Part shown: positions 46,876-59,591 of the stretch, piece after piece
How positions within the stretch are numbered: position 1 is the first letter of the stretch
Layout of the letters: every line of letters begins with the position of its first letter
Source of the DNA: an uncultured Methanosarcinales archaeon
GTDB taxonomy: Archaea; Nanobdellota; Nanobdellia; Woesearchaeales; ARS49
Direction of reading: 5' to 3'
NCBI GenBank assembly: GCA_964362535.1
Contig: CAYIEN010000003.1
Location: 6,018 to 70,017, forward strand
Length of the DNA stretch: 64,000 nucleotides
Translations under genes and position numbers: made by a program
Notes under the pieces: model-generated
Told to the model about the DNA's origin: nothing
Database searches by the model: none
What the model saw: the letters and a program-made list of their open reading frames with translations, nothing else

Positions 46876-47006
46876 CCCCTCCTAGCTCAACGGTGGAGCG
46901 TCCGGCTGTAGACGAAAAGTCACTCGCAGACCATGGTCCCAGGACCAGGAATGAACGCGAGTCAGCAGAACCCGGAAGGCTGCTGGTTCAAATCCGGCGG
47001 AGGGGA
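46876..47006 (+). tRNA. tRNA-Tyr (anticodon GUA) with about 59-nt intron at canonical 37/38 position (46912-46970)
   Basis: Archaeal Tyr identity C1-G72 (CCCCTCC/GGAGGGG), A73; D GCTC/GAGC; anticodon stem TCCGG ... CCGGA split by intron; loop CTGTAG; T arm GCTGG-TTCAAAT-CCGGC. Confidence 0.7.
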
Positions 47007-48052: not shown

Positions 48053-48370
48053 TTGGTCATGGAACCGTTTGTTGTTTTGGATCGTTCAAATAAGCATTTT
48101 TCGCGTTTTATGGACTTGTTGAAAGAACAGGAGCATGTGCGTATTAAGGATGTAAAGAAGATTGTTACGCATTCTTCGTATTATGGTGTTATTCTGAAGA
48201 AGGTTTGTGGTTTGAATGAAGTGATGCGTGAATTGTCTCCGAAATTCTATATTGCTGAACCTGCTTTTGACGTGACGGAAAGCAAGGAAGTGTTCACTGC
48301 CTTGAAACGTTGTCCAAACCTCGTTATTGAGGCACGTAAAGAATTCTTCCTGCTGAGGTACACACAATGA
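48053..48370 (+). CDS. Hypothetical protein (105 aa), co-transcribed with RHH protein
   Basis: ATGA overlap with downstream gene. Confidence 0.35.
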   Translation: MVMEPFVVLDRSNKHFSRFMDLLKEQEHVRIKDVKKIVTHSSYYGVILKKVCGLNEVMRELSPKFYIAEPAFDVTESKEVFTALKRCPNLVIEARKEFFLLRYTQ

Positions 48371-48588
48371 GGAAAAACCATCAGATACGTTTTCGCGTCG
48401 ATCGTGAACAGGCAGAACGCATTCGTAACAAAGCAAGCGCAAAAGGATATTCAAGCACAAGCGCATATTTACGTCATCTAGCTCTTGAACGCGATATGCT
48501 GATCGAGCAAGCAATTCTTGACACTCGCGATGATGTCGTGACACTTTCGCGGATGATTAAGGAATCACGCAAAACTGGCACTGTTTAG
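48367..48588 (+). CDS. Ribbon-helix-helix DNA-binding protein (MobC/CopG-like)
   Basis: IRFRVDREQAERIRNKASAKGYSSTSAYLRHLAL matches RHH beta-strand plus helices pattern of MobC-type proteins. Confidence 0.5.
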   Translation: MRKNHQIRFRVDREQAERIRNKASAKGYSSTSAYLRHLALERDMLIEQAILDTRDDVVTLSRMIKESRKTGTV

Positions 48589-48807
48589 TGCAACAACGTC
48601 TGTTTTAGGGCGTTCTTGACTATCGAGGAAAACGAGGACTGCTTTACGTCCCTCGCAATTAACTAGATAGTAGAAGACTTCATCACCTTTTTGGAGCGCG
48701 TTACCAACAACAAGCTCTTTTGCGAGTGTTAAGAAAAAGTTAGCGCGCTTTTGCTGTAAACGCACTGACCAACCCACGCCTTCAAAATTGCCTTTTGTTG
48801 TATTCAT
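48565..48807 (-). CDS. Hypothetical protein (80 aa)
   Basis: No motif. Confidence 0.25.
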   Translation of the reverse strand: MNTTKGNFEGVGWSVRLQQKRANFFLTLAKELVVGNALQKGDEVFYYLVNCEGRKAVLVFLDSQERPKTDVVALNSASFA

Positions 48808-48953
48808 CAGTTTGAAACCGCCCCACCTCTTATCCTGAATGTGTTTTTTTCCCTTTATAAAATGGCTGAGAAAAAAATGGAAGAAAATGTAGAGAAAAGC
48901 TTAAAAAGCACACAATATCCTCCATTTTTGAAGGGGCTGATGGAAGTACATCG

Positions 48954-50021
48954 GTGGAATTTGACCTCAAAAACATCAAGATATTGACGGAACTTGACAA
49001 GAATTGTCGACAACCGTATTCTGACATTGCCAAAACAGTCAATCTTTCTCAGCAATCCGTAAGCCGCAGAATCAACAAACTCCTCCAGGAAGGCGTTCTG
49101 AAACAGTTCGTCACATTCATCAACCTCGAATACATCGGTTTTCGAGTCATTAACATCTGTTTGAAGCTGAAACACATGCCTCAAGCCGAAGAAGAACACC
49201 TCCTTCAGCTCATAAGCGACATTCCGCACGTCAACTGGCTTTGTAGCCTTTCTGGAAGCCCTTACGACTTGATAATTGGCATTCACGCAGCAGACGTCAG
49301 CCACTTTGAACGCCTCTTTAACCAAATTACAGGCATATTTGAGCACGAAATCATCGACGACGGATGGTTCAACTGCATGGACAGCTTCCAACTCCCCTAC
49401 CCCCTCCAAAAGCGCAAGCCAGAGGTTCCGTCAAGCATTGGCGTAAAGCTCGGCCCAAAACTCGCCTTACAACGTCTTGACTACCTGATCCTCCAAGAAT
49501 TAGCAAGCAACGCCCGAATAACCAACCAAGAACTAGCCAAAAAATTCAAAACAGGCATTCAAACCATTACTGCACACATTCAACGCATGGAACAAGACAA
49601 CGTCATCCAAGGCTACAAGCCGTTGATTGACATGCAAAAACTCGGATACCAATGGCACCTCGTATTGTTTAAACTGAAATACGTTGATGCCGAAACCAAG
49701 AAACAATTCATGGAATTCCTGAAATCAATACCCCAAACCTTCTTCGTCGTTCACGGAGTGGGAAACTGGAACATGCAAGTCGAATTCTACTGCAAAAACA
49801 ACGACGAATACGGACAAGTCATGAACACCATCTTCCCACAAAAATACCACAAAATCATCAAAACACAACACGAACTTATTATTTTAAAAGAACACAAATG
49901 CATCTGGTATCCTGCTGCGAAAGTCGAAGAAGCTATCCAAACGAAACTTGGCAAATGGAATTCCCAAAAACAACCACTCGAACAACCCATCAAAACACTC
50001 ATCAAACGAACAAAAACATAA
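48954..50021 (+). CDS. Tandem (duplicated) Lrp/AsnC-family transcriptional regulator
   Basis: Two HTH_AsnC-like units (LDKNCRQPYSDIAKTVNLSQQSVSRRINKL; LQELASNARITNQELAKKFKTGIQTITAHIQRM), each followed by RAM-like domain. Confidence 0.6.
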   Translation: MEFDLKNIKILTELDKNCRQPYSDIAKTVNLSQQSVSRRINKLLQEGVLKQFVTFINLEYIGFRVINICLKLKHMPQAEEEHLLQLISDIPHVNWLCSLSGSPYDLIIGIHAADVSHFERLFNQITGIFEHEIIDDGWFNCMDSFQLPYPLQKRKPEVPSSIGVKLGPKLALQRLDYLILQELASNARITNQELAKKFKTGIQTITAHIQRMEQDNVIQGYKPLIDMQKLGYQWHLVLFKLKYVDAETKKQFMEFLKSIPQTFFVVHGVGNWNMQVEFYCKNNDEYGQVMNTIFPQKYHKIIKTQHELIILKEHKCIWYPAAKVEEAIQTKLGKWNSQKQPLEQPIKTLIKRTKT

Positions 50022-50085: not shown

Positions 50086-50829
50086 ATGGCGGATAAAGAT
50101 CAACAAAGTGTAGGTTGTGCGAGAAACATTAACGAAAGTTCGGCATTGGGCATTCTGAGTGAACAGGTGGATGAAGCGGGACTGCGTTTTTGTTGGGACA
50201 CTTTGCCTTCTGATAAACGGAATATTTTAAGGCCGGATTGCAAAAATATCGAAGATGTCATTCTGGACGCCGCACGTATGTACTTGAGTCCTTCATTTGT
50301 CTTTGATGGTCCTGAAGACTTTTCTAAAGGATCACTTGTATACATTCTCATGGTGGACTCAATACTTGAATTTATGGAGGGAGAAGTCCATATTGCTGGC
50401 GAAAAGCTCAAAACAAGATTTTCGACATTCACACAAGCTCCCTACGACTTGTTACCTGGCAAAGAAGTTATGCGTCTGAATTTTTATGAGCCAAAATCAA
50501 TAGCAGATTTAGGATGCGTTGCCGTTCACGAATTCTCGCACTTATACGACGCCCGAAGAAACAAACTCGCAATTGAGGAAGATACAAATCAGCTCCTACC
50601 TAGTGAAAAAACTCGATATGGCAGATCCATTACGCATGTTGTTTCAGAAGTAAAAGCTACACTTAGAGAGCTTATTTACGCAAAATCCTTAGATTGCAAT
50701 AAAGATGAAAAAGATCGCCTTCTGGCAATAAATTTACGGAGATTAACTAAAGAACTAGATGAATTAAGCGTTAGTAATGTTCAAGAGAAAATATGGTTAG
50801 AACTCGATATTGGTAAATACTTGAAGTAA
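50086..50829 (+). CDS. Putative zinc metallopeptidase (HExxH motif)
   Basis: VAVHEFSHLYD is the single HExxH element; otherwise unassigned. Confidence 0.35.
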   Translation: MADKDQQSVGCARNINESSALGILSEQVDEAGLRFCWDTLPSDKRNILRPDCKNIEDVILDAARMYLSPSFVFDGPEDFSKGSLVYILMVDSILEFMEGEVHIAGEKLKTRFSTFTQAPYDLLPGKEVMRLNFYEPKSIADLGCVAVHEFSHLYDARRNKLAIEEDTNQLLPSEKTRYGRSITHVVSEVKATLRELIYAKSLDCNKDEKDRLLAINLRRLTKELDELSVSNVQEKIWLELDIGKYLK

Positions 50830-50869: not shown

Positions 50870-51154
50870 TCAAAGTAATCTTGTGTTGAGAGGGTGCGGG
50901 CAGAATGTTTTTAAGAAATAGTCGATTTTTTCGGGGTGTTGTTCCGCATCGCGTTTTAGATGAGTCACTCGAGCAACGTATTGCAAGACTGCCTGATACT
51001 GCTGAAGAGGGTTATTCAACGCAGCGATCTGGTCACGATGCATTTTGATAGATACAGCCACACTCGGATTATCCGCGTACTCCCAAAGAAGTTTGATAAA
51101 GTAATCAAAGGCGTTAAGCGGCTCGCGCATGATAACATCAAGTTCTTCTGTCAT
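50870..51154 (-). CDS. Hypothetical protein (94 aa), last gene of SET operon
   Basis: No motif. Confidence 0.3.
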   Translation of the reverse strand: MTEELDVIMREPLNAFDYFIKLLWEYADNPSVAVSIKMHRDQIAALNNPLQQYQAVLQYVARVTHLKRDAEQHPEKIDYFLKTFCPHPLNTRLL

Positions 51155-51205
51155 AGTAGTCTGGAATGCTCAAATGAATAAAAACCTTCACTTTCTCGTT
51201 TCTAG

Positions 51206-52156
51206 TTAGGCATGTTCTGTTCCGGGGTATCGTATTCGTGGTCTTCCTTGTCCTCGTGTTGTGCGGATGTATTTGCTGAATTCGCACATGCAGTTTTGTA
51301 ATGACATGACGCTGAGTGTTCGTTCATTCATCGGTAAGTCTGTAAGTATTCTTGTTAGGTCTCCGAGGACTCTTTTTTGGTTGTCGCGGAGCCAAAAAAG
51401 CAGTTCTTCATCAGTGAGCCCATCAGTATTGGAGAATAAGTAGCGTAGTCCTTTCTTGCAGCCGGGTCCCGCAACGACAAACTCATTCTCACTGAAAGGA
51501 AACGCAGGAATGTAGGTGAAGTCAACAAATATTTGGTATGCGAGAAAGCGCCCCAGTCCTGGACAGCTTTCCAATGCTTCAAAAACTTCTCGGGGCGTCA
51601 CACTGCGCATTATTCTCCCGATAATGTCCTGCGCTTTGTGCAGTGCAACGAGCCGTATGATGCGAACTGCTTTGTTCGGTTCATTCGAGAAAAGCTTGTT
51701 TGCCGCAGCTTTCGGTCCGCTCGTGAAAAAAGCATTAGAAAACAACACAAACCGCGCACTATCCAATTTCTTTCGAATACTGTCATAAGGTATGTTGTCG
51801 AAATCAACAAGCCCGATGTGCTCTATGGTTTGTGACTTGTTAAACAGACGAAAAAGAATACAGTTGAGAAGCGTGTGCCCATAAGAAAGATTTGTATTTA
51901 GACAAACGTGGTTGATAAGCCAAATCGTTTCTTTGTCCTGTTCGCGCCGCACATTCGTAAACTTGTACTTTTGCAAAATAGGGTCTTGCGTCCACGGCTT
52001 TGGCAAATGTTTTTCTTTCGCAAGCCGAATACGATATCTCTCGCAAACCCAATACGCAAACAACCGCGCTTCCTCAACATTCAAAACCGGCACAGCAACC
52101 CTGATCAGCTCTTTGCGAACCGCACAATACGGAATATCTGCAGATTTCAATTGCAT
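51206..52156 (-). CDS. Hypothetical protein (316 aa), W/F/Y-rich conserved blocks; no confident family assignment
   Basis: Blocks PWTQDPILQKYKFTNVRREQDKET, GLGRFLAYQIFVDFTY, FVVAGPGCKKGLRYLF; in operon with NDT-like and SET genes. Confidence 0.4.
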   Translation of the reverse strand: MQLKSADIPYCAVRKELIRVAVPVLNVEEARLFAYWVCERYRIRLAKEKHLPKPWTQDPILQKYKFTNVRREQDKETIWLINHVCLNTNLSYGHTLLNCILFRLFNKSQTIEHIGLVDFDNIPYDSIRKKLDSARFVLFSNAFFTSGPKAAANKLFSNEPNKAVRIIRLVALHKAQDIIGRIMRSVTPREVFEALESCPGLGRFLAYQIFVDFTYIPAFPFSENEFVVAGPGCKKGLRYLFSNTDGLTDEELLFWLRDNQKRVLGDLTRILTDLPMNERTLSVMSLQNCMCEFSKYIRTTRGQGRPRIRYPGTEHA

Positions 52157-52219
52157 AAAAAAACAATACCCAAGAACAGATTAAATAACTTACTTGTCAG
52201 GATGGGTAAAGATCGCGCA

Positions 52220-52417
52220 TCACAACTTGTGCATCTTCTTAGCAACAATGGTCAATATTCCTGCAAATAACAGTGTGGTGAATGAAACAAGTATTATGCG
52301 CCACACTTCAGACATTCCGATTGGTTTGAGAATGAACTGGTGCAAAAGAACTACTAAAACGATATCAATAACCCAAATGAGCAAGTAACGCGAATGCGAT
52401 TTCTTACGTGCCATCAT
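52220..52417 (-). CDS. Small 2-TM membrane protein (65 aa)
   Basis: Hydrophobic helices; within operon. Confidence 0.3.
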   Translation of the reverse strand: MMARKKSHSRYLLIWVIDIVLVVLLHQFILKPIGMSEVWRIILVSFTTLLFAGILTIVAKKMHKL

Positions 52418-52445
52418 CCGTTAGTGTTCTTTTTGATTTATAAGA

Positions 52446-52835
52446 TTATCTCTCAAGATGAACCGCGTTTTTGAACAGTTCTATGTTGTTGAGCGGGATA
52501 ATCCCTGCTGCGAAAGTGTCGATTGCGATGTCTTTTGTTGGTTCCGAGAAATAAACAGGTTTTTTGAGTGCGAGCGCGTATCCAAGCTCGATTTTAAGGC
52601 TTGTTCCGATGTATCCTTCTGGAACAATAAAGTAAACAGCATCGCACTTCTCAATTGCCTCGTAGTATTCTAACGCTAGTCTCTTTTTTGTTTCAGGACT
52701 GTCAGCCACATCACGATTTTCCGATATTTGATCAACATTCGGACACAACGGCTGCAAACCTAACTCATTCATACACTTTATCGTCGCTTTCACCACATCA
52801 CGAAAACGCATACTCGAACCGATCAAAATTTTCAT
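52446..52835 (-). CDS. Nucleoside 2-deoxyribosyltransferase-like (Rcl/DNPH1-type N-glycosidase fold) protein
   Basis: CDAVYFIVPEGYIGTSLKIELGYALALKKPVY matches the family's flavodoxin-like catalytic core (E in xELG, GKP). Confidence 0.5.
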   Translation of the reverse strand: MKILIGSSMRFRDVVKATIKCMNELGLQPLCPNVDQISENRDVADSPETKKRLALEYYEAIEKCDAVYFIVPEGYIGTSLKIELGYALALKKPVYFSEPTKDIAIDTFAAGIIPLNNIELFKNAVHLER

Positions 52836-54097
52836 AATTTCTCCACTACTTGGTTTTCATCTTCATAAACGATTTTTCCCAGCGCATCTTTAGAAGATGC
52901 TTCTGATTTAATATTCGAAAGATACTTTTTGTGTGAAAGCAACAACGTTTTCTCGTACGTCGCTTTACCCTTTTTGGTAAGATAGAATCTATACTTGCCT
53001 TTTGGAAGCGTTGGCTTAACAAGCCACTTCTTTCGTTCCAACACTTCATTTATGAGAGTTTCTGGAAGTAATCGTTTGCCTGCGGAAAAGACTCCTTCGC
53101 CATTCGTTGTGAAGCGATAAAGTTGCATTTTCTGCCGTTCAATAATGAATGGTGGAACAACGCCAAGTTGAATGTATTTTTTTTGCAGTGCTTTTGTTAG
53201 TGTTCCAAACGATGCAATAGTTTTGCGACACTTTTTATTTCCGCAGGCGCACTTCATTGTTTCGTTATCCGCAATTGCAGTTGAATAGTCATATGTAATT
53301 TCTTCTCCTGATTTTATGTATTTTATTGCAATGAGACTGGCAGTTTTGCCATGAATCTTTTGTCCTGCATTCGGATTACAAGAATGATTCACGAAGTCCT
53401 CCACGTCGTGCGCCGGACCAATCCACAAGGTTTCCGAAATTTGTGCAGAATGAGCACGTACGCTTTGCGGTTCACGCATCATTTGCACATTCGTCATCAA
53501 TTTACCCGTATACCGAAAAATAACCTCTCCTTTCTTGAAATCACGATTCGCAAAAACACCCTTGCCCGCAGTCTTGGACTTTTTTACTAGCAAAGGCTCA
53601 TACTTCCAACGCTTATTTACCGTTGCCATGAGTTTTTCGTATTTCGCAAAAGAACCAAGCTTTGCGCTTTTTCTTCGTGCATCCAGCCCTTTGCGGTCAG
53701 CAATAGGTCTCGCAATAAAAATGCCTTTCGGAGCATAAAACTGTGTTCCGTACACTTGTTTCTTGCCTGAATTGACCAGAACTCTATCCGTTAAAAACGC
53801 CAGACTTCCTTTGTCTGCTTGTTTTTCTTTCACTGCTTTTTGTAGTAGTTTGAGGCATTTCTTTTGGAATGCGAGATTGTAATCCGCGTGCTGTAAGATT
53901 AGCCAGGCAGCAATGGAGCCCTTCCTGCCCACTAATTTGTATGTTGGCCAGCCAAATTCATTAACAATTTTGACCAACACCTTCGCGTGCCTCTTATCCA
54001 TTTCCGGATCCCACTTACCACCCTTCCCCGCAGCAGTACGCATCTTCACGTCAGCCTTCATCATGCGAAGAAGCTCAAAATGGAGTTTGTGGTTCAT
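52832..54097 (-). CDS. SET-domain lysine methyltransferase-like protein with post-SET Cys cluster and unassigned N-/C-terminal domains
   Basis: GKGVFANRDFKKGEVIFRYTG, NHSCNPN, EITYDYS, post-SET CACGNKKCR. Confidence 0.7.
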   Translation of the reverse strand: MNHKLHFELLRMMKADVKMRTAAGKGGKWDPEMDKRHAKVLVKIVNEFGWPTYKLVGRKGSIAAWLILQHADYNLAFQKKCLKLLQKAVKEKQADKGSLAFLTDRVLVNSGKKQVYGTQFYAPKGIFIARPIADRKGLDARRKSAKLGSFAKYEKLMATVNKRWKYEPLLVKKSKTAGKGVFANRDFKKGEVIFRYTGKLMTNVQMMREPQSVRAHSAQISETLWIGPAHDVEDFVNHSCNPNAGQKIHGKTASLIAIKYIKSGEEITYDYSTAIADNETMKCACGNKKCRKTIASFGTLTKALQKKYIQLGVVPPFIIERQKMQLYRFTTNGEGVFSAGKRLLPETLINEVLERKKWLVKPTLPKGKYRFYLTKKGKATYEKTLLLSHKKYLSNIKSEASSKDALGKIVYEDENQVVEKL

Positions 54098-54165
54098 TAC
54101 ACTTGTTGAGAATTTCGTATTTATAAATCATAAGTTTTAAGAAGAAGACTATCTTCTAAAGATGC

Positions 54166-57776: not shown

Positions 57777-59591
57777 TTATCTCTTCATGATGTAAAGTTG
57801 CATTGGCACATTTCGAGTATCTCCGCCTTTGTAATCAATAGACTCAATTTTCATGGAGTGCTCTTTGGCCCAACTTTGCATGTGTTGTTCTTGTGCTTGT
57901 TCTGTTTTGAGCATGTGAGTATATCTTTTTTCTGAGAGAGGGCTGACGTTTAACGTCACGCCAATCATTCCCGGCTGCTTCAAATGAGCATACGCAAGTT
58001 CGAGTTCTCGCAATCCTGAAGGAGACAGGTGTCCGAGCCAGTCCAAAAATACCAAGTCAAACTGTTTGTTCGTTTTTTGTAGTGCTTCTTCTGCGCTTGA
58101 AAGTACGAGTTCGAGTCGTGAAAGGCGGCTTTCTTTAAGCAAGGAGTTTACTTTGCGCAGACTCTTGATGCGCGACATAACGTTGTATGCTCGTTCATCA
58201 CGTTCTGGAACAAGCGAGGTTCGTGAATCAATGTTCAATTTTTGTGCGAGAGCAAAATAGCTTCCGAATGTTGGGCCTTCAAGACCGAAATAAGAAATGC
58301 GTTTGTCTTTGAGAAATGAGTGTGCTTGTTCTGCAAAAATGTCTCGGATTTCTTGTTTTTCTCCATTCTTGAACGCATAGTATCCGAGAGGACTTAAGTC
58401 AATACCTTGCGCGCCAAGATGTTGATGAATGACGAACGCATCATACTTTCCTTCCCATCGGCTCTGTCTGTTTGCGCTCGTACCGTTAAAAAGTGTTGGA
58501 GTAACGAACGGTTTGACTGTTGCAAATTCTTTGTCATTCGTAACAAGGTCCATGATTGCCTCAACGTTACCTCCATAAGCACACGTGAGCATTCCCGCAA
58601 GAGTCGTTCCCCAGCGATTAATTGGCTTGCGAAAAAACGATTCTTCCGTTAGTACAGGTAAGATTTTTTTGAATCCAGAAACCATTTTAGGATTTACACC
58701 ATTCTCTTTTCCAAGAACCATGACGAGTGTTTTTGTTGCTTCGCGAGCAATAAGTGTCGGTTTTCCTTTTTTCTGCCACGTGTTTGCTGCTGCTTTAGGA
58801 AAGTCGTATGCTTGGAGGTCGCGGAAGTTTGCAAAGTCAGGATTGTGTGCAATCATGTCGAGAACGGCGTCGCTGGGACTGTTGTGATACGCACTGTGGA
58901 GTGTGCCGCAAAGGTTGGTTTCCCAGCGATTGATAGGTAGTGTGCGGAAGTTTACGGCAGTGAGTTCGGGAAGGATTGTTTTGAAGCCTTCGAGTGTGCG
59001 AACGTCAACGTTTTTGATCTTGCCAAGTTGGTAAATAAATTGTGTGGTTGCTTTTCGTGCAAGGTCTGTTGGTTTTCCTTCGTGACGCCATGCTTTAACG
59101 GGGGCTTTAGGAAAGTCGTAAGAACGTAAGTCGCGAACGTGTTTGAACTCATTGTCGTGCGTGACGAGGTCGAGTATTGCGTCGATGCAGCTTGCGCCGT
59201 ACGCTCTGTTCATCTGTCCAAGAAGCGTCGTACCCCACTTGTTAATGGGTGTATGCATGAACGATTCAGAAGTCAAGAAAGGAAGAACAGCTTTGAACCC
59301 GGCAAAAGTAGTATAATCAACTTTTTGTTCTTGCGCAACACGTTGAACTAGTGTTTTTGTGGCGAGCTGCGCATACGAAAGCCCAGGACGATCGCTCCCT
59401 TTCCAAACATTCTTCGTACCAGGAAAATCAAAAGGCCGCACCTCAATATGTCTTGCTTGCAGCATGCGTGACAATTCTTCCGCTTCATCAAGATGCAACT
59501 GAATGCCTAGAGACTTAACCACCTGCGGCCCCTCAAGAACAACCTGCTCAACAAGCGCGTCAAGACAGACCTCAACATGGCGTTTCGTCAT
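57777..59591 (-). CDS. Large protein with three about 90 aa tandem repeats and C-terminal class I SAM-methyltransferase-like (O-MTase family 3-like) domain
   Basis: Repeats (F/L)xGFKxxLPxLTxxxFxxxPINxWxTxLxGxxxxAYxxxxxDAxLDxxxHxxxFxxxRDLxxYDFPKA x3; C-term FDLVFLDWLGHLSPSGLRELELAYAHLKQPGMIGV resembles FDxIFIDAdK...L(k/r)pGG(l/v)i motif IV-VI. Confidence 0.45.
   Translation of the reverse strand: MTKRHVEVCLDALVEQVVLEGPQVVKSLGIQLHLDEAEELSRMLQARHIEVRPFDFPGTKNVWKGSDRPGLSYAQLATKTLVQRVAQEQKVDYTTFAGFKAVLPFLTSESFMHTPINKWGTTLLGQMNRAYGASCIDAILDLVTHDNEFKHVRDLRSYDFPKAPVKAWRHEGKPTDLARKATTQFIYQLGKIKNVDVRTLEGFKTILPELTAVNFRTLPINRWETNLCGTLHSAYHNSPSDAVLDMIAHNPDFANFRDLQAYDFPKAAANTWQKKGKPTLIAREATKTLVMVLGKENGVNPKMVSGFKKILPVLTEESFFRKPINRWGTTLAGMLTCAYGGNVEAIMDLVTNDKEFATVKPFVTPTLFNGTSANRQSRWEGKYDAFVIHQHLGAQGIDLSPLGYYAFKNGEKQEIRDIFAEQAHSFLKDKRISYFGLEGPTFGSYFALAQKLNIDSRTSLVPERDERAYNVMSRIKSLRKVNSLLKESRLSRLELVLSSAEEALQKTNKQFDLVFLDWLGHLSPSGLRELELAYAHLKQPGMIGVTLNVSPLSEKRYTHMLKTEQAQEQHMQSWAKEHSMKIESIDYKGGDTRNVPMQLYIMKR

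What the first reader, a model, noticed from the sequence alone, without database searches (positions are those of the whole stretch)
50870..54097. Minus-strand operon: SET-domain methyltransferase + nucleoside 2-deoxyribosyltransferase-like protein + small TM + unassigned 316 aa protein
A canonical SET domain (GxG, NHSCNPN, YDYS, post-SET CxCx4C) carries extra N- and C-terminal domains. It is translationally coupled (4-nt overlap) to an Rcl/NDT-fold N-glycosidase-like protein and followed by a conserved-looking 316 aa aromatic-rich protein and a 94 aa protein. SET proteins are rare in archaea. The combination with a deoxynucleoside/base-exchange-type enzyme hints at chromatin-protein or nucleotide/DNA-modification biology, or a defence/counter-defence module inside the accessory island.
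Basis: partly seen in the sequence, partly recalled or inferred. Interest (0 to 1): 0.65.

Follow-up and report, generated by a model that had tools for sequence, protein, structure and literature searches.

The report
Archaeal orphan phage-type DNA-hypermodification gene cluster
A small groundwater archaeon carries a strain-specific row of five genes in which the "unassigned" 316 aa protein belongs to a phage family linked to chemical modification of thymine in DNA, but the enzymes that normally accompany it are absent from the window and the gene arrangement is not conserved, so it is an interesting mosaic rather than a new system.

Summary
All five minus-strand ORFs exist as described. The SET and NDT-like genes overlap by 4 nt, and the other gaps are 28-63 nt.

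The "unassigned" 316 aa protein is a full-length member of Pfam PF18723 (HMUDK_hel, E 1e-67). This is the family of phage ViI gp160, M6 gp55 and the C-terminal half of SP10 gp186. It has a helix-hairpin-helix fold and is a distant relative of the amino-acid:DNA transferases that hypermodify thymidine. Its own activity has never been shown.

The window has no dUMP hydroxymethylase, 5-hmdU DNA kinase or transferase, so it is not a canonical hypermodification pathway.

The 129 aa protein has a confident NDT/DNPH1/MilB fold with the catalytic Glu. Its family is mainly from CPR bacteria, where it sits in housekeeping contexts.

The SET protein is catalytically intact, and its three-domain fusion was seen only in this strain.

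Linkage:
- SET, the 65 aa TM protein and the 94 aa protein sit near a HMUDK_hel gene only in this strain.
- NDT plus HMUDK_hel recurs once, in a related archaeon, with a helical gene only 31% identical.

Best reading: an accessory-island mosaic in which NDT and HMUDK_hel may both handle 5-substituted pyrimidines. It is a new member of known kinds, of moderate-to-low interest.

The parts
52832..54097 (-). 421 aa three-domain protein. DUF6624 is at aa 8-157 (window 53627-54076). SET plus post-SET is at aa 162-295 (53213-53614). A mobile C-terminal module of unknown function is at aa 317-421 (52835-53149).
   Evidence: Pfam DUF6624 E 6e-20 and SET E 1.6e-17. The best PDB match is MLL1 SET/post-SET, E 2e-14. 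The C-terminal module is 67% identical to the C-terminus of a Nanoarchaeota HAD/PNK3P-type protein (P0125), 61% to P0127, and is also attached to another SET protein, P0122. The full architecture was found only in the same strain.
52446..52835 (-). 129 aa protein of the nucleoside 2-deoxyribosyltransferase / DNPH1 / MilB-fold N-glycosidase superfamily. Its start overlaps the SET stop by 4 nt.
   Evidence: PF05014 at 29.4 bits against a cut-off of 28.8. AF2 pLDDT 91.9. Foldseek finds NDTs at TM 0.70, then BcmB, DNPH1 and MilB. Glu83, in the GTSLKIELGYA motif, aligns with the NDT nucleophile and is invariant in the family. The family has 112 hits, mostly Patescibacteria, at 55-65% identity.
52220..52417 (-). 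65 aa ORF with two predicted transmembrane helices; coding status probable.
   Evidence: The ORF is listed and has two hydrophobic 19-residue windows. The only family hit is a sub-threshold Cap15_TM match, E 0.026. It is present only in same-strain contigs L001 and L043. It was not called as a gene on L001. Three nonsynonymous differences are clustered at 52350-52375.
51206..52156 (-). 316 aa standalone HMUDK_hel protein (the ViI gp160 / M6 gp55 / SP10 gp186C family). It has a helix-hairpin-helix DNA-glycosylase-like fold. Key motifs are FTNVRREQD (aa 66-74), GLGRFLAYQIFVD (aa 200-212), FSENEF (aa 221-226), and the invariant Cys291-Glu292 within SLQNCMCEFSKY.
   Evidence: PF18723 E 1.1e-67 and phrog_2396 E 1e-76. 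There are 838 homologs, all of about 310-340 aa among those listed. AF2 pLDDT 93.8. The top Foldseek PDB hit is 8z2m, the 5-PmdU glycinyltransferase.
50870..51154 (-). 94 aa ORF of unknown function, the last gene of the co-directional row.
   Evidence: The ORF is listed. It has no significant match in Pfam, NCBIfam, PHROGs or PADLOC. Among the fetched loci it is found only in L001, and its cluster has a single member.
54118..54127 (-). TTTATAAATA, an archaeal TATA-box-like element 20 nt upstream of the SET start codon. It lies in the 68-nt divergent intergenic region (inferred promoter).
   Evidence: Read directly from the sequence. Similar A/T boxes occur in the spacers before TM65 (TTATAAAT) and before HEL (TTATTTAAT), so those genes may have their own promoters. 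The function of these elements was not tested.

Best explanation
The row is a strain-specific mosaic in a low-GC accessory island of a DPANN-type archaeon. It is not a conserved system.

Its most informative member is the 316 aa protein. This is a standalone member of the phage HMUDK_hel family, a helix-hairpin-helix protein related to the amino-acid:DNA transferases that hypermodify thymidine.

Inferred mechanism for the 316 aa protein: it binds duplex DNA, flips out a C5-substituted uracil or thymine-type base, and acts on it through the invariant Cys291/Glu292. This would be analogous to Cys247 attack at C6 in PaMx11 gp46.

Inferred role for the neighbouring 129 aa NDT-fold enzyme: with Glu83 as nucleophile, it cleaves or exchanges the base of the corresponding (deoxy)nucleotide or nucleoside. 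DNPH1 does this with hmdUMP (from memory), and MilB does it with hmCMP.

Together they would form a loose pair that handles modified pyrimidines, either clearing or salvaging non-canonical pyrimidines or acting on foreign modified DNA, in an organism that probably lives on scavenged nucleotides.

The SET protein is most likely an independent protein-lysine methyltransferase. Its nearest named relative is from a CPR bacterium, as are the NDT relatives, so both may have come from CPR-like sources. The 65 aa and 94 aa ORFs have no assignable role.

Shown: gene presence, family and fold assignments, conserved residues, absence of the canonical partner genes from the window, and the patterns of linkage. 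Inferred: every catalytic step and any cooperation between the genes.
For: Family and fold of the 316 aa protein.

Colinear motif alignment with ADDT: HhH, the [DE]N motif, and DRxxNxxxxExxxC with C291 on Cys247. The Cys247 mechanism is described in PMC11472151, and the requirement for Cys plus Glu in PMC8989533.

The family always sits among pyrimidine-nucleotide or DNA-modification genes:
- Next to or fused with the 5-hmdU kinase in M6, PaMx11 and SP10.
- Next to MazG in ViI and CBA120.
- Next to dCMP deaminase in 42 of 50 viral contigs, and TAGT in 14 of 50.
- Next to dCMP deaminase in the 72% identical archaeal homolog.
- In enterobacteria, with a ThyA-like gene, a dNMP kinase, a TIR/NDT-like protein and Nmad2.

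NDT fold and catalytic Glu.

NDT (80% identical) and a different HMUDK_hel gene (31% identical) lie 1.8 kb apart on the same strand in a related archaeon, which also shares the GNAT and P604 genes.
Against: - No activity has ever been shown for the HMUDK_hel clade. The SP10 kinase works without this domain, and kinase plus clade-2 transferase suffice for hypermodification in vitro (PMC8989533).
- The sequence link to ADDT is statistically weak: hhalign E 0.057, Foldseek PDB E 0.24 and TM about 0.4.
- The window protein has Gln287 where ADDT has Glu243. By motif position, Glu243 corresponds to the essential or metal-binding Glu.
- NDT + HEL linkage is absent from the other DPANN loci. In CPR bacteria the NDT family is solitary, next to LexA or near GroEL.
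- Each spacer carries its own TATA-like box, so co-transcription is unproven.
Confidence: 0.4

Rival explanations
1. The genes are unrelated cargo. The five genes are independent acquisitions that happen to be co-directional in a variable island. NDT is a CPR-type nucleoside/nucleotide salvage enzyme. SET is a stand-alone protein methyltransferase. The HMUDK_hel gene is a solitary gene of viral origin with its own separate function. There is no cooperation between them.
For: - The SET architecture is unique to the strain.
- SET, TM65 and P94 are absent from all other HMUDK_hel loci.
- DPANN homologs of the helical gene are solitary in varied, often housekeeping contexts.
- NDT homologs are solitary in CPR genomes.
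- TATA-like boxes occur before TM65, HEL and P94.
- The region has low GC and is rich in ORFans.
Against: - NDT and a HMUDK_hel gene co-occur again in a related archaeon even though the helical gene belongs to a different clade, at 31% identity. This looks like in-situ replacement.
- A TIR/NDT-like fold protein directly follows HMUDK_hel in five enterobacterial loci.
- The SET/NDT 4-nt overlap implies co-expression of at least those two genes.
Confidence: 0.35
2. The genes form an antiviral defence module. The HhH-fold protein recognises hypermodified or hydroxymethylated pyrimidines in invading viral DNA and excises or covalently traps them, like the Dag or Brig glycosylases. The NDT-like enzyme destroys the modified nucleotide pool, and the small membrane protein acts as an effector.
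For: - HhH-superfamily glycosylase-like proteins are now known defence genes against modified phage DNA (bioRxiv 10.1101/2025.10.29.685425).
- aGPT-Pplase-type domains are predicted, but unvalidated, defence domains (PMC13092281).
- One Woesearchaeota homolog lies next to an integrase and a GmrSD type IV restriction gene.
- The enterobacterial operon includes TIR and SLOG genes typical of conflict systems.
- The cluster sits in an accessory island.
Against: - No PADLOC model matches any gene here.
- Most family members are phage-encoded and lie within replication modules. This suits a counter-defence or DNA-modification role better than host defence.
- Similarity to true glycosylases is marginal: Foldseek prob 0.06-0.25.
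- The TM65 match to Cap15_TM is below threshold.
Confidence: 0.13
3. The genes are part of a self-DNA thymidine-hypermodification pathway. The archaeon, or an integrated virus, converts 5-hmdU in its own DNA into a hypermodified base, and the 316 aa protein is one of the pathway enzymes.
For: The family is named for this pathway and is genetically tied to it in M6, PaMx11, SP10, PhiW-14 and ViI (PMC5889632, PMC8989533).
Against: - The 64 kb window has no dUMP hydroxymethylase, 5-HMUDK kinase, ADDT, PLP or rSAM enzyme, MazG or dCMP deaminase.
- No integrase-related protein was detected near the cluster, although only ORFs from 37.8 kb onward were scanned against Pfam, and no att repeat was found.
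- In 50 viral contigs with close standalone relatives, the kinase is near the gene in 1 and ADDT in 0. The standalone clade therefore works outside the canonical pathway.
Confidence: 0.06
4. The SET enzyme methylates an archaeal chromatin protein, and it is functionally coupled to the NDT-like and 316 aa proteins in one chromatin/DNA-modification operon.
For: The SET and post-SET motifs are intact and resemble the MLL/NSD type. The SET and NDT genes overlap by 4 nt.
Against: - The SET + NDT pair is found only in this strain.
- The nearest named SET relative is from a CPR bacterium.
- No chromatin-protein gene was detected among the flanking ORFs that were scanned.
- In the related archaeon, NDT is instead coupled to an unrelated 169 aa ORF.
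Confidence: 0.06

Closest known systems
HMUDK_hel family (Pfam PF18723): Salmonella phage ViI gp160 (orf00160, Vi01_130c), E. coli phage CBA120 orf156, Pseudomonas phage M6 gp55, PaMx11 gp50, and the C-terminal half of Bacillus phage SP10 gp186
   Same: - Full-length HMM match.
- 33-37% identity over the whole length to the Ackermannviridae proteins.
- The same invariant motifs.
- The same predicted fold: TM 0.73 to SP10 gp186, and 0.60-0.68 to the PhiW-14 and phiRSL1 members.
   Different: - It is encoded in an archaeal chromosome island, not a phage.
- No 5-hmdU kinase is fused or adjacent, and no hydroxymethylase, MazG or dCMP deaminase is nearby.
- It is about 80 aa shorter than the Ackermannviridae versions.
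- It has Gln instead of Glu at position 287.
Amino-acid:DNA transferases (ADDT, aGPT-Pplase clade 2, Pfam PF18724): PaMx11 gp46/PUGT (PDB 8z2m), M6 gp51, ViI gp247
   Same: - It is the top PDB structural match, and ADDT proteins are recovered in BFVD at prob 0.97-1.0.
- The alignment of HhH, the acidic [DE]N motif and the DRxxN...ExxxC motif is colinear, placing C291 on the catalytic Cys247.
- Both families belong to thymidine-hypermodification gene sets.
   Different: - It is not a member: there is no PF18724 match even at E 10, the hhalign E is only 0.057, and TM is about 0.4.
- It has Gln287 at the position of Glu243.
- No activity is known for the HMUDK_hel clade, and it was dispensable for in vitro hypermodification (PMC8989533).
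NDT superfamily N-glycosidases: nucleoside 2-deoxyribosyltransferases, DNPH1/Rcl, MilB (hmCMP hydrolase), BcmB (CMP hydrolase)
   Same: The 129 aa protein has the same fold (TM up to 0.70) and the conserved nucleophile Glu in the ELG motif. The N-terminal GSSMRFR loop resembles the phosphate-binding GSIRGG loop of DNPH1; that comparison is from memory and was not tested.
   Different: It is a very short (129 aa), divergent clade typical of CPR bacteria. The Pfam score is just at threshold. The substrate, and whether it is a hydrolase or a transferase, are unknown.
Enterobacterial ThyA-like / dNMP kinase / HMUDK_hel / ThsB-TIR-like / Nmad2 operon (loci L014-L017, L019)
   Same: A standalone HMUDK_hel gene is immediately followed by a small Rossmann-like TIR/NDT-type protein. 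That protein matches PF08937 at E 3e-20 and has a weak PF05014 match at E 0.21.
   Different: The window lacks the ThyA-like, kinase and Nmad2 genes. The gene order is reversed, with NDT upstream. The partner belongs to a different family of the fold, and the HEL proteins are only about 38% identical.
SET-domain lysine methyltransferases (MLL/NSD-type SET plus post-SET)
   Same: GxG, NHSCxPN, YDY and the post-SET CxCx4C motif are all present, with E 2e-14 to MLL1 SET.
   Different: It is fused to an N-terminal DUF6624 and to a mobile C-terminal module of about 100 aa that is also found on HAD/PNK3P-type proteins. It has only 15 detectable homologs, and none has the same architecture outside the strain.

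Membership tests
Pfam PF18723 HMUDK_hel (ViI gp160-type helical protein) | Profile match above the curated cut-off over nearly the whole domain | tested here: met
   228.8 bits against a cut-off of 25, E 1.1e-67, residues 31-301 on profile positions 5-276 of 281. phrog_2396 matches at E 1.2e-76.
Pfam PF18723 HMUDK_hel (ViI gp160-type helical protein) | Family-invariant residues and motifs: FTNVRRExD, the HhH motif GxGxFLAYQ, SENE, GPG, and C-E-x-x-K-Y | tested here: met
   All 44 invariant columns of a 30-sequence alignment are present in the window protein by construction, and the motifs were located. Position 287 is Gln, as in 4 other members; most members have Glu.
Pfam PF18723 HMUDK_hel (ViI gp160-type helical protein) | Predicted fold shared with named members (SP10 gp186, the PhiW-14 and phiRSL1 helical-domain proteins) | tested here: met
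   AF2 pLDDT 93.8. BFVD Foldseek E values are 1e-13 (SP10), 5e-11 (phiRSL1) and 1e-9 (PhiW-14), with TM 0.60-0.73.
Pfam PF18723 HMUDK_hel (ViI gp160-type helical protein) | Fusion or adjacency to a 5-hmdU DNA kinase (the origin of the family name) | tested here: not met
   phmmer with the M6 gp54, PaMx11 gp49 and SP10 gp186 kinases finds nothing in the six-frame translation of the window. This is not a strict requirement: only 1 of 50 viral loci with close standalone relatives has a kinase within 6 kb.
Phage thymidine-hypermodification pathway (Lee et al. 2018, 2021) | dUMP hydroxymethylase (thymidylate-synthase homolog) to supply 5-hmdU | tested here: not met
   No match in the 64 kb window to SP10 gp188, PaMx11 gp51 or the enterobacterial ThyA-like protein. 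The rest of the genome was not available.
Phage thymidine-hypermodification pathway (Lee et al. 2018, 2021) | 5-HMUDK P-loop kinase plus an amino-acid:DNA transferase (PF18724), the necessary and sufficient pair | tested here: not met
   No kinase and no ADDT in the window. The 316 aa protein itself does not match PF18724 at E up to 10.
Phage thymidine-hypermodification pathway (Lee et al. 2018, 2021) | Presence of hypermodified thymidine in the DNA | not testable with these tools
   This requires LC-MS nucleoside analysis or signal-level nanopore data from this lineage.
Amino-acid:DNA transferase (ADDT, aGPT-Pplase clade 2) | Catalytic Cys with a nearby essential or metal-binding Glu in the QEVETxLC motif | tested here: inconclusive
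   hhalign places C291 on Cys247 and position 287 on Glu243, but at E 0.057 with only two template sequences. The window protein has Gln287. No structural superposition at residue level was possible.
HhH-GPD DNA glycosylases | HhH motif followed by a catalytic Asp, with a glycosylase fold | tested here: inconclusive
   An HhH-like GLGRFLAYQ motif is present. Foldseek finds AGOG/Ogg, AlkA and MutY only at prob 0.06-0.25 and TM 0.19-0.27, and endonuclease III at prob 0.51. No catalytic Asp could be assigned.
Nucleoside 2-deoxyribosyltransferase / DNPH1 superfamily (PF05014) | Profile match, fold, and the nucleophile Glu in the ExG motif | tested here: met
   PF05014 scores 29.4 bits against a cut-off of 28.8. 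The family profile hits PDB NDTs at E 0.0035. The fold gives TM 0.70. Glu83 is invariant and aligned to the NDT Glu. Activity and substrate were not tested.
SET-domain protein lysine methyltransferase | SET profile match with GxG, NHSCxPN, the ELxYDY-type Tyr, and post-SET Cys ligands | tested here: met
   PF00856 E 1.6e-17. MLL1 SET/post-SET E 2e-14, with the motifs aligned. The substrate is not testable here.
Known anti-phage defence systems (PADLOC-DB v2) | A match of any cluster gene to a defence-system model | tested here: not met
   No hits at E up to 0.01 for nine proteins of the cluster and its flanks.
   SET, TM65 and P94 occur with HEL only in the same strain (L001, L043). NDT + HEL occurs in one further related archaeon (L045/L046) and nowhere else among 132 loci.

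The most novel reading that the evidence does not exclude
The standalone HMUDK_hel proteins are kinase-independent, cysteine-dependent enzymes that act on C5-substituted pyrimidines in DNA. In DPANN archaea they have been domesticated and, where an NDT-fold hm-dNMP N-glycosidase is also present, the two work together. The pair would let a nucleotide-scavenging symbiont detoxify, recycle or attack hypermodified (5-hmdU-derived) DNA from viruses or hosts. If so, this cluster would give a function to a phage protein clade (ViI gp160 / M6 gp55) that has had none since 2013, and it would reveal modified-thymidine biology in archaea.
Probability: 0.12. Interest if true: 0.7.

Novelty: new member of a known kind. 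Interest (0 to 1): 0.35.

Why it matters
The HMUDK_hel (ViI gp160-type) clade is widespread: at least 838 detected homologs, 435 phage records, and several DPANN and bacterial lineages. It is extremely conserved, yet it has no demonstrated activity, even though it sits inside the best-studied DNA-hypermodification gene sets.

Here a copy is seen without the kinase, hydroxymethylase or transferase. Viral contigs show that this is the rule for the closest standalone relatives, which pair instead with dCMP deaminase and sometimes with a TET-associated glycosyltransferase. Together these observations argue that the family has its own chemistry rather than being a kinase accessory.

For this particular locus the value is modest. 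It corrects an "unassigned" call and a misleading public name ("nucleotide kinase domain-containing protein"). It documents an unusual SET fusion in a DPANN archaeon. It also offers one testable pairing, NDT-fold enzyme plus helical protein. It does not establish a new system.

Tried and rejected
- **ADDT/aGPT-Pplase membership of the 316 aa protein.** Pfam gives only PF18723, even at E 10. The relation to ADDT is distant and structural only.
- **Sequence searches of the 316 aa protein and its family profile against the PDB.** No hits at E up to 10.
- **Iyer et al. 2013, the paper that defined these families.** It is not held in the library. Its content is cited only through Lee et al.
- **Integrated element.** No att-like repeat of the flanking tRNAs and no integrase among the ORFs scanned. 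Only a NikA-like gene was found. Not all ORFs of the window were scanned.
- **PADLOC defence models.** None matched.
- **Cap15_TM for the 65 aa ORF.** The match is below threshold (E 0.026, 15.6 bits against 28.2), so it was rejected.
- **BLAST/phmmer of SET, NDT, TM65, P94 and P247 against 132 loci holding HMUDK_hel or NDT homologs.** Only same-strain hits were found, plus NDT, GNAT and P604 in L045/L046.
- **A possible recurrent metallopeptidase neighbour.** P247 has HEFSH, L038 has a PhageMetallopep gene, and L039 has an M10-like gene. All three carry HExxH but show no detectable homology, so this was left as a passing note.
- **The label "Patescibacteria" for the identical NDT protein.** It stems from a 1.8 kb fragment binned into a CPR MAG. 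The window itself is archaeal.

Full report
**1. Observation**

The five minus-strand ORFs are present exactly as reported:
- SET protein, 52832-54097, 421 aa.
- NDT-like protein, 52446-52835, 129 aa.
- Small hydrophobic ORF, 52220-52417, 65 aa.
- 316 aa protein, 51206-52156.
- 94 aa ORF, 50870-51154.

SET and NDT overlap by 4 nt. The remaining gaps are 28, 63 and 51 nt. A TTTATAAATA box lies 20 nt upstream of the SET start. Similar A/T boxes occur in the spacers before the 65 aa and 316 aa genes. Only SET and NDT are therefore clearly co-expressed, and a single five-gene transcript is possible but unproven.

The host is an archaeon:
- rpoB is split, and the window also encodes rpoA'.
- An Rpb5/H gene lies on the sister contig.
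- A 131-nt tRNA match, consistent with an intron, lies at 46876-47006.

The samples are Hainich groundwater, 0.1 µm fraction, and the closest relatives of several genes are DPANN lineages. The cluster lies in a lower-GC, ORFan-rich stretch: GC 0.40 for 47-58 kb against 0.46 upstream.

**2. The 316 aa protein**

It is not unassignable. It matches Pfam PF18723 (HMUDK_hel, "5-hmdU DNA kinase, helical domain") at E 1.1e-67 over residues 31-301. It also matches phrog_2396 at E 1e-76.

There are at least 838 homologs, and those listed are standalone proteins of about 310-340 aa. Conservation is striking, with 44 invariant columns in 30 sequences at 44-72% identity. The conserved features include:
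- FTNVRRExD.
- A helix-hairpin-helix-like GxGxFLAYQIFVD motif.
- FSENEF.
- GPGC.
- An invariant Cys291-Glu292.

A tblastn search of cultured phages finds 435 records. They are dominated by Ackermannviridae (ViI, CBA120, Ag3, Dickeya phages) at about 35% identity over the full length. These are the phages known for thymidine hypermodification.

I verified which phage proteins belong to PF18723:
- CBA120 orf156.
- ViI orf00160 ("gp160", Vi01_130c, next to a MazG-like gene), by synteny with CBA120 orf156.
- M6 gp55.
- PaMx11 gp50.
- The C-terminal half of SP10 gp186.

The catalytic amino-acid:DNA transferases M6 gp51 and PaMx11 gp46 are a separate family, PF18724 (ADDT). On nomenclature, Table 3 of Lee 2018 lists M6 gp51 in the same row as ViI gp160 and SP10 gp186C. 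By Pfam, the M6 member of that family is gp55.

**3. What is known about that family**

- Lee et al. 2018 (PMC5889632) list gp160 and gp186C among genes unique to hypermodifying phages, with a predicted HhH DNA-glycosylase fold.
- Lee et al. 2021 (PMC8989533) show that the SP10 kinase domain alone phosphorylates 5-hmdU. They also show that kinase plus the clade-2 enzyme are necessary and sufficient for group transfer.
- I found no activity reported for the gp160/HMUDK_hel clade in these papers or in the 2024 and 2026 structural papers (PMC11472151, PMC13458397).

**4. Fold and active-site analogy**

The AF2 model is confident, at pLDDT 93.8.
- **Against the PDB.** The best Foldseek hit is 8z2m, the PaMx11 5-PmdU glycinyltransferase (prob 0.80, TM about 0.4). 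It is followed by AGOG/Ogg, AlkA and MutY at low probability.
- **Against predicted viral structures.** The series is graded. HMUDK_hel proteins come first (TM 0.6-0.86), then "Pplase1 clade 1" (E about 1e-6), then ADDT proteins (prob 0.97-1.0, TM 0.39-0.49), then endonuclease III (prob 0.5).
- **Profile-profile alignment to M6 gp51 and PaMx11 gp46.** It is statistically weak (E 0.057) but colinear. The HhH motifs align, FSENEF aligns with SFDN, and DRxLNVMSLENCMC aligns with DRPVNIQEVETILC. This puts Cys291 on the catalytic Cys247.

The Cys247 mechanism is attack at C6, loss of phosphate, and formation of an exocyclic methylene (PMC11472151).

The window protein and a few relatives have Gln at position 287, where ADDT has Glu243. 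By motif position, Glu243-Thr244 correspond to the metal ligands E222/T223 of the SH-Ab 15599 enzyme (PMC13458397). That correspondence is my inference.

I conclude that the protein is very probably an enzyme of the ADDT/HhH superfamily that flips a pyrimidine and uses Cys291. This is inference, not demonstration.

**5. Is it part of a hypermodification pathway here?**

No. Searching the six-frame translation of the window found only the 316 aa gene itself. The queries were hydroxymethylases, 5-HMUDK kinases, ADDTs, PLP, rSAM and FAD enzymes, MazG, dCMP deaminase, Nmad2 and TIR-like proteins.

Independence from the kinase is also typical of the closest standalone relatives. In 50 viral contigs of about 40-60 kb:
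- A dCMP deaminase follows the gene in 42.
- A D5-like primase-helicase is nearby in 38.
- Pol A is nearby in 33.
- A TET-associated glycosyltransferase directly follows it in 14.
- A kinase is within 6 kb in 1.
- An ADDT is within 6 kb in 0.
- A ThyA-like gene is within 6 kb in 3.

The 72% identical archaeal homolog also lies beside a dCMP deaminase.

In five enterobacterial genomes the gene sits in a conserved block with ThyA-like, dNMP kinase, HMUDK_hel, a ThsB-TIR-like protein and Nmad2. SLOG and TIR genes lie alongside.

**6. The NDT-like protein**

- Pfam support is marginal, but the fold is clear: pLDDT 91.9, and TM 0.70 to NDTs, with BcmB, DNPH1 and MilB also recovered.
- Glu83 aligns with the NDT nucleophile and is invariant.
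- The family of about 128 aa is overwhelmingly from Patescibacteria, at 55-65% identity.
- In those genomes it is a solitary gene next to LexA or near GroES/EL. This points to a general nucleoside/nucleotide salvage or sanitation role.

**7. The SET protein**

- All catalytic and post-SET motifs are intact, and the domain resembles the MLL/NSD type.
- It is a three-part fusion of DUF6624, SET and a C-terminal module of about 100 aa.
- The C-terminal module is mobile. It is also found on a Nanoarchaeota HAD/PNK3P-type protein (67% identity), on another short protein, and on a second SET protein.
- Only 15 homologs were detected, and the full architecture occurs only in this strain.

**8. Linkage**

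Across 132 loci holding HMUDK_hel or NDT homologs, SET, the 65 aa ORF and the 94 aa ORF occur only in same-strain contigs L001 and L043.

Other DPANN copies of the helical gene are solitary in varied contexts. Two lie near a YchF-type GTPase gene, one of them also near ribosomal protein genes. One lies next to an integrase and GmrSD.

There is one positive signal, in loci L045/L046 from a related archaeon:
- P604 is 52-66% identical to the window's copy.
- GNAT is 76% identical.
- NDT is 80% identical.
- A HMUDK_hel gene lies 1.8 kb upstream of NDT on the same strand, but it is only 31% identical to ours.
- NDT is coupled there to an unrelated 169 aa ORF, and there is no SET gene.

This can be read as in-situ replacement of a functionally required partner, or as two insertions into the same hot spot.

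A profile search found no further NDT-family genes near HMUDK_hel genes.

**9. Conclusion**

But the five genes do not form a conserved module, no defence model matches, and nothing ties the SET domain to the others beyond one strain.

The best-supported reading (about 0.4) is an accessory-island mosaic in which the NDT-fold enzyme and the HMUDK_hel protein may both deal with C5-substituted pyrimidines, the former at the nucleotide level and the latter in DNA. Close behind (about 0.35) is that they are simply unrelated cargo.

All families involved are known, and public annotation already carries the SET and NDT names. PGAP's name for the helical protein, "nucleotide kinase domain-containing protein", is misleading because no kinase domain is present.

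I rate this a new member of known kinds, with interest 0.35. The open question it touches, what the gp160/HMUDK_hel clade does, is real. It is better attacked with the phage or enterobacterial versions than with this locus.

Noticed in passing
window 46876-47006 (+): Rfam tRNA match spanning 131 nt (50.1 bits) that ARAGORN did not report, consistent with an intron-containing archaeal tRNA. It lies at the boundary where GC drops and the ORFan-rich island begins. No att-like repeat of it was found downstream.
   Followed up: partly
L014-L017 and L019 (Brenneria, Buttiauxella, Erwinia, Citrobacter, Aeromonas), about 6.3-12.3 kb in L015: A conserved block of ThyA-like (361 aa), dNMP kinase (185 aa), HMUDK_hel (about 330 aa), ThsB-TIR-like (165 aa) and Nmad2 (220 aa). 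In the four enterobacterial loci (L014-L017), SLOG-cluster3 and TIR genes lie on the opposite strand. It looks like a nucleotide-modification conflict system, and PF18723 has not been functionally tied to one.
   Followed up: partly
L049-L098 (IMG/VR contigs of 40-60 kb): The standalone HMUDK_hel gene is embedded in a replication module. dCMP deaminase is present in 42 of 50 loci, a D5-like primase-helicase in 38 and Pol A in 33. A TET-associated glycosyltransferase (TAGT) lies directly downstream in 14. Almost none have a 5-hmdU kinase or a transferase. This suggests a kinase-independent role, possibly tied to glycosylated hydroxymethyl-pyrimidines.
   Followed up: partly
window 50086-50829 (+); L038 8015-8431; L039 548-1546: The convergent 247 aa neighbour has an HEFSH (HExxH) motif and no family match. 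In two other DPANN loci the gene directly beside HMUDK_hel is metallopeptidase-like (PF18894 PhageMetallopep, and an M10-like protein with CARDB). All three carry HExxH but show no detectable homology to each other.
   Followed up: partly
window 57777-59591 (-) and L045/L046: A 604 aa ORFan with internal repeats of roughly 100 aa; tblastn gives several offset self-like alignments. Its C-terminal stretch (…FDLVFLDWLGHL…) looks methyltransferase-like by eye. It has no Pfam or PADLOC match. It is conserved at 52-66% in the related archaeon, next to the same GNAT gene.
   Followed up: no
window 52350, 52359, 52375 (65 aa ORF); 44661, 44677 (tRNA-Lys); 51216, 51242 (3' end of the 316 aa gene): The window and sister contig L001 differ at only 13 positions in 11.6 kb. 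Six are at the contig end. Three are clustered in the 65 aa ORF and all change the amino acid. Two fall inside tRNA-Lys. This is either population microdiversity or assembly noise.
   Followed up: partly
L043 (1.8 kb contig; NCBI MEK7499670-MEK7499672): A fragment identical to the SET-NDT-HEL junction is deposited in a MAG labelled "Patescibacteria group bacterium", although the window is clearly archaeal, so the fragment was probably mis-binned. PGAP names the helical protein "nucleotide kinase domain-containing protein" although it has no kinase domain.
   Followed up: yes
L040 8165-11591 (Woesearchaeota): Here the HMUDK_hel homolog is immediately followed by a phage-type integrase and a GmrSD type IV restriction enzyme, which targets modified DNA. 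HEPN and UvrD/PD-(D/E)XK genes lie beyond, giving a defence-island-like context.
   Followed up: no
window 48367-50021: A NikA-like mobilisation protein (73 aa) and a 355 aa protein with two Lrp/AsnC-type winged-helix domains lie just upstream of the cluster. These are the only mobile-element or regulatory signatures found in the island.
   Followed up: no
L002 8437-10743 (same aquifer): The 72% identical HMUDK_hel homolog lies next to a LAGLIDADG homing-endonuclease-like gene, a dCMP deaminase and topoisomerase VI subunit A. This is a chromosomal context quite unlike the window's.
   Followed up: partly
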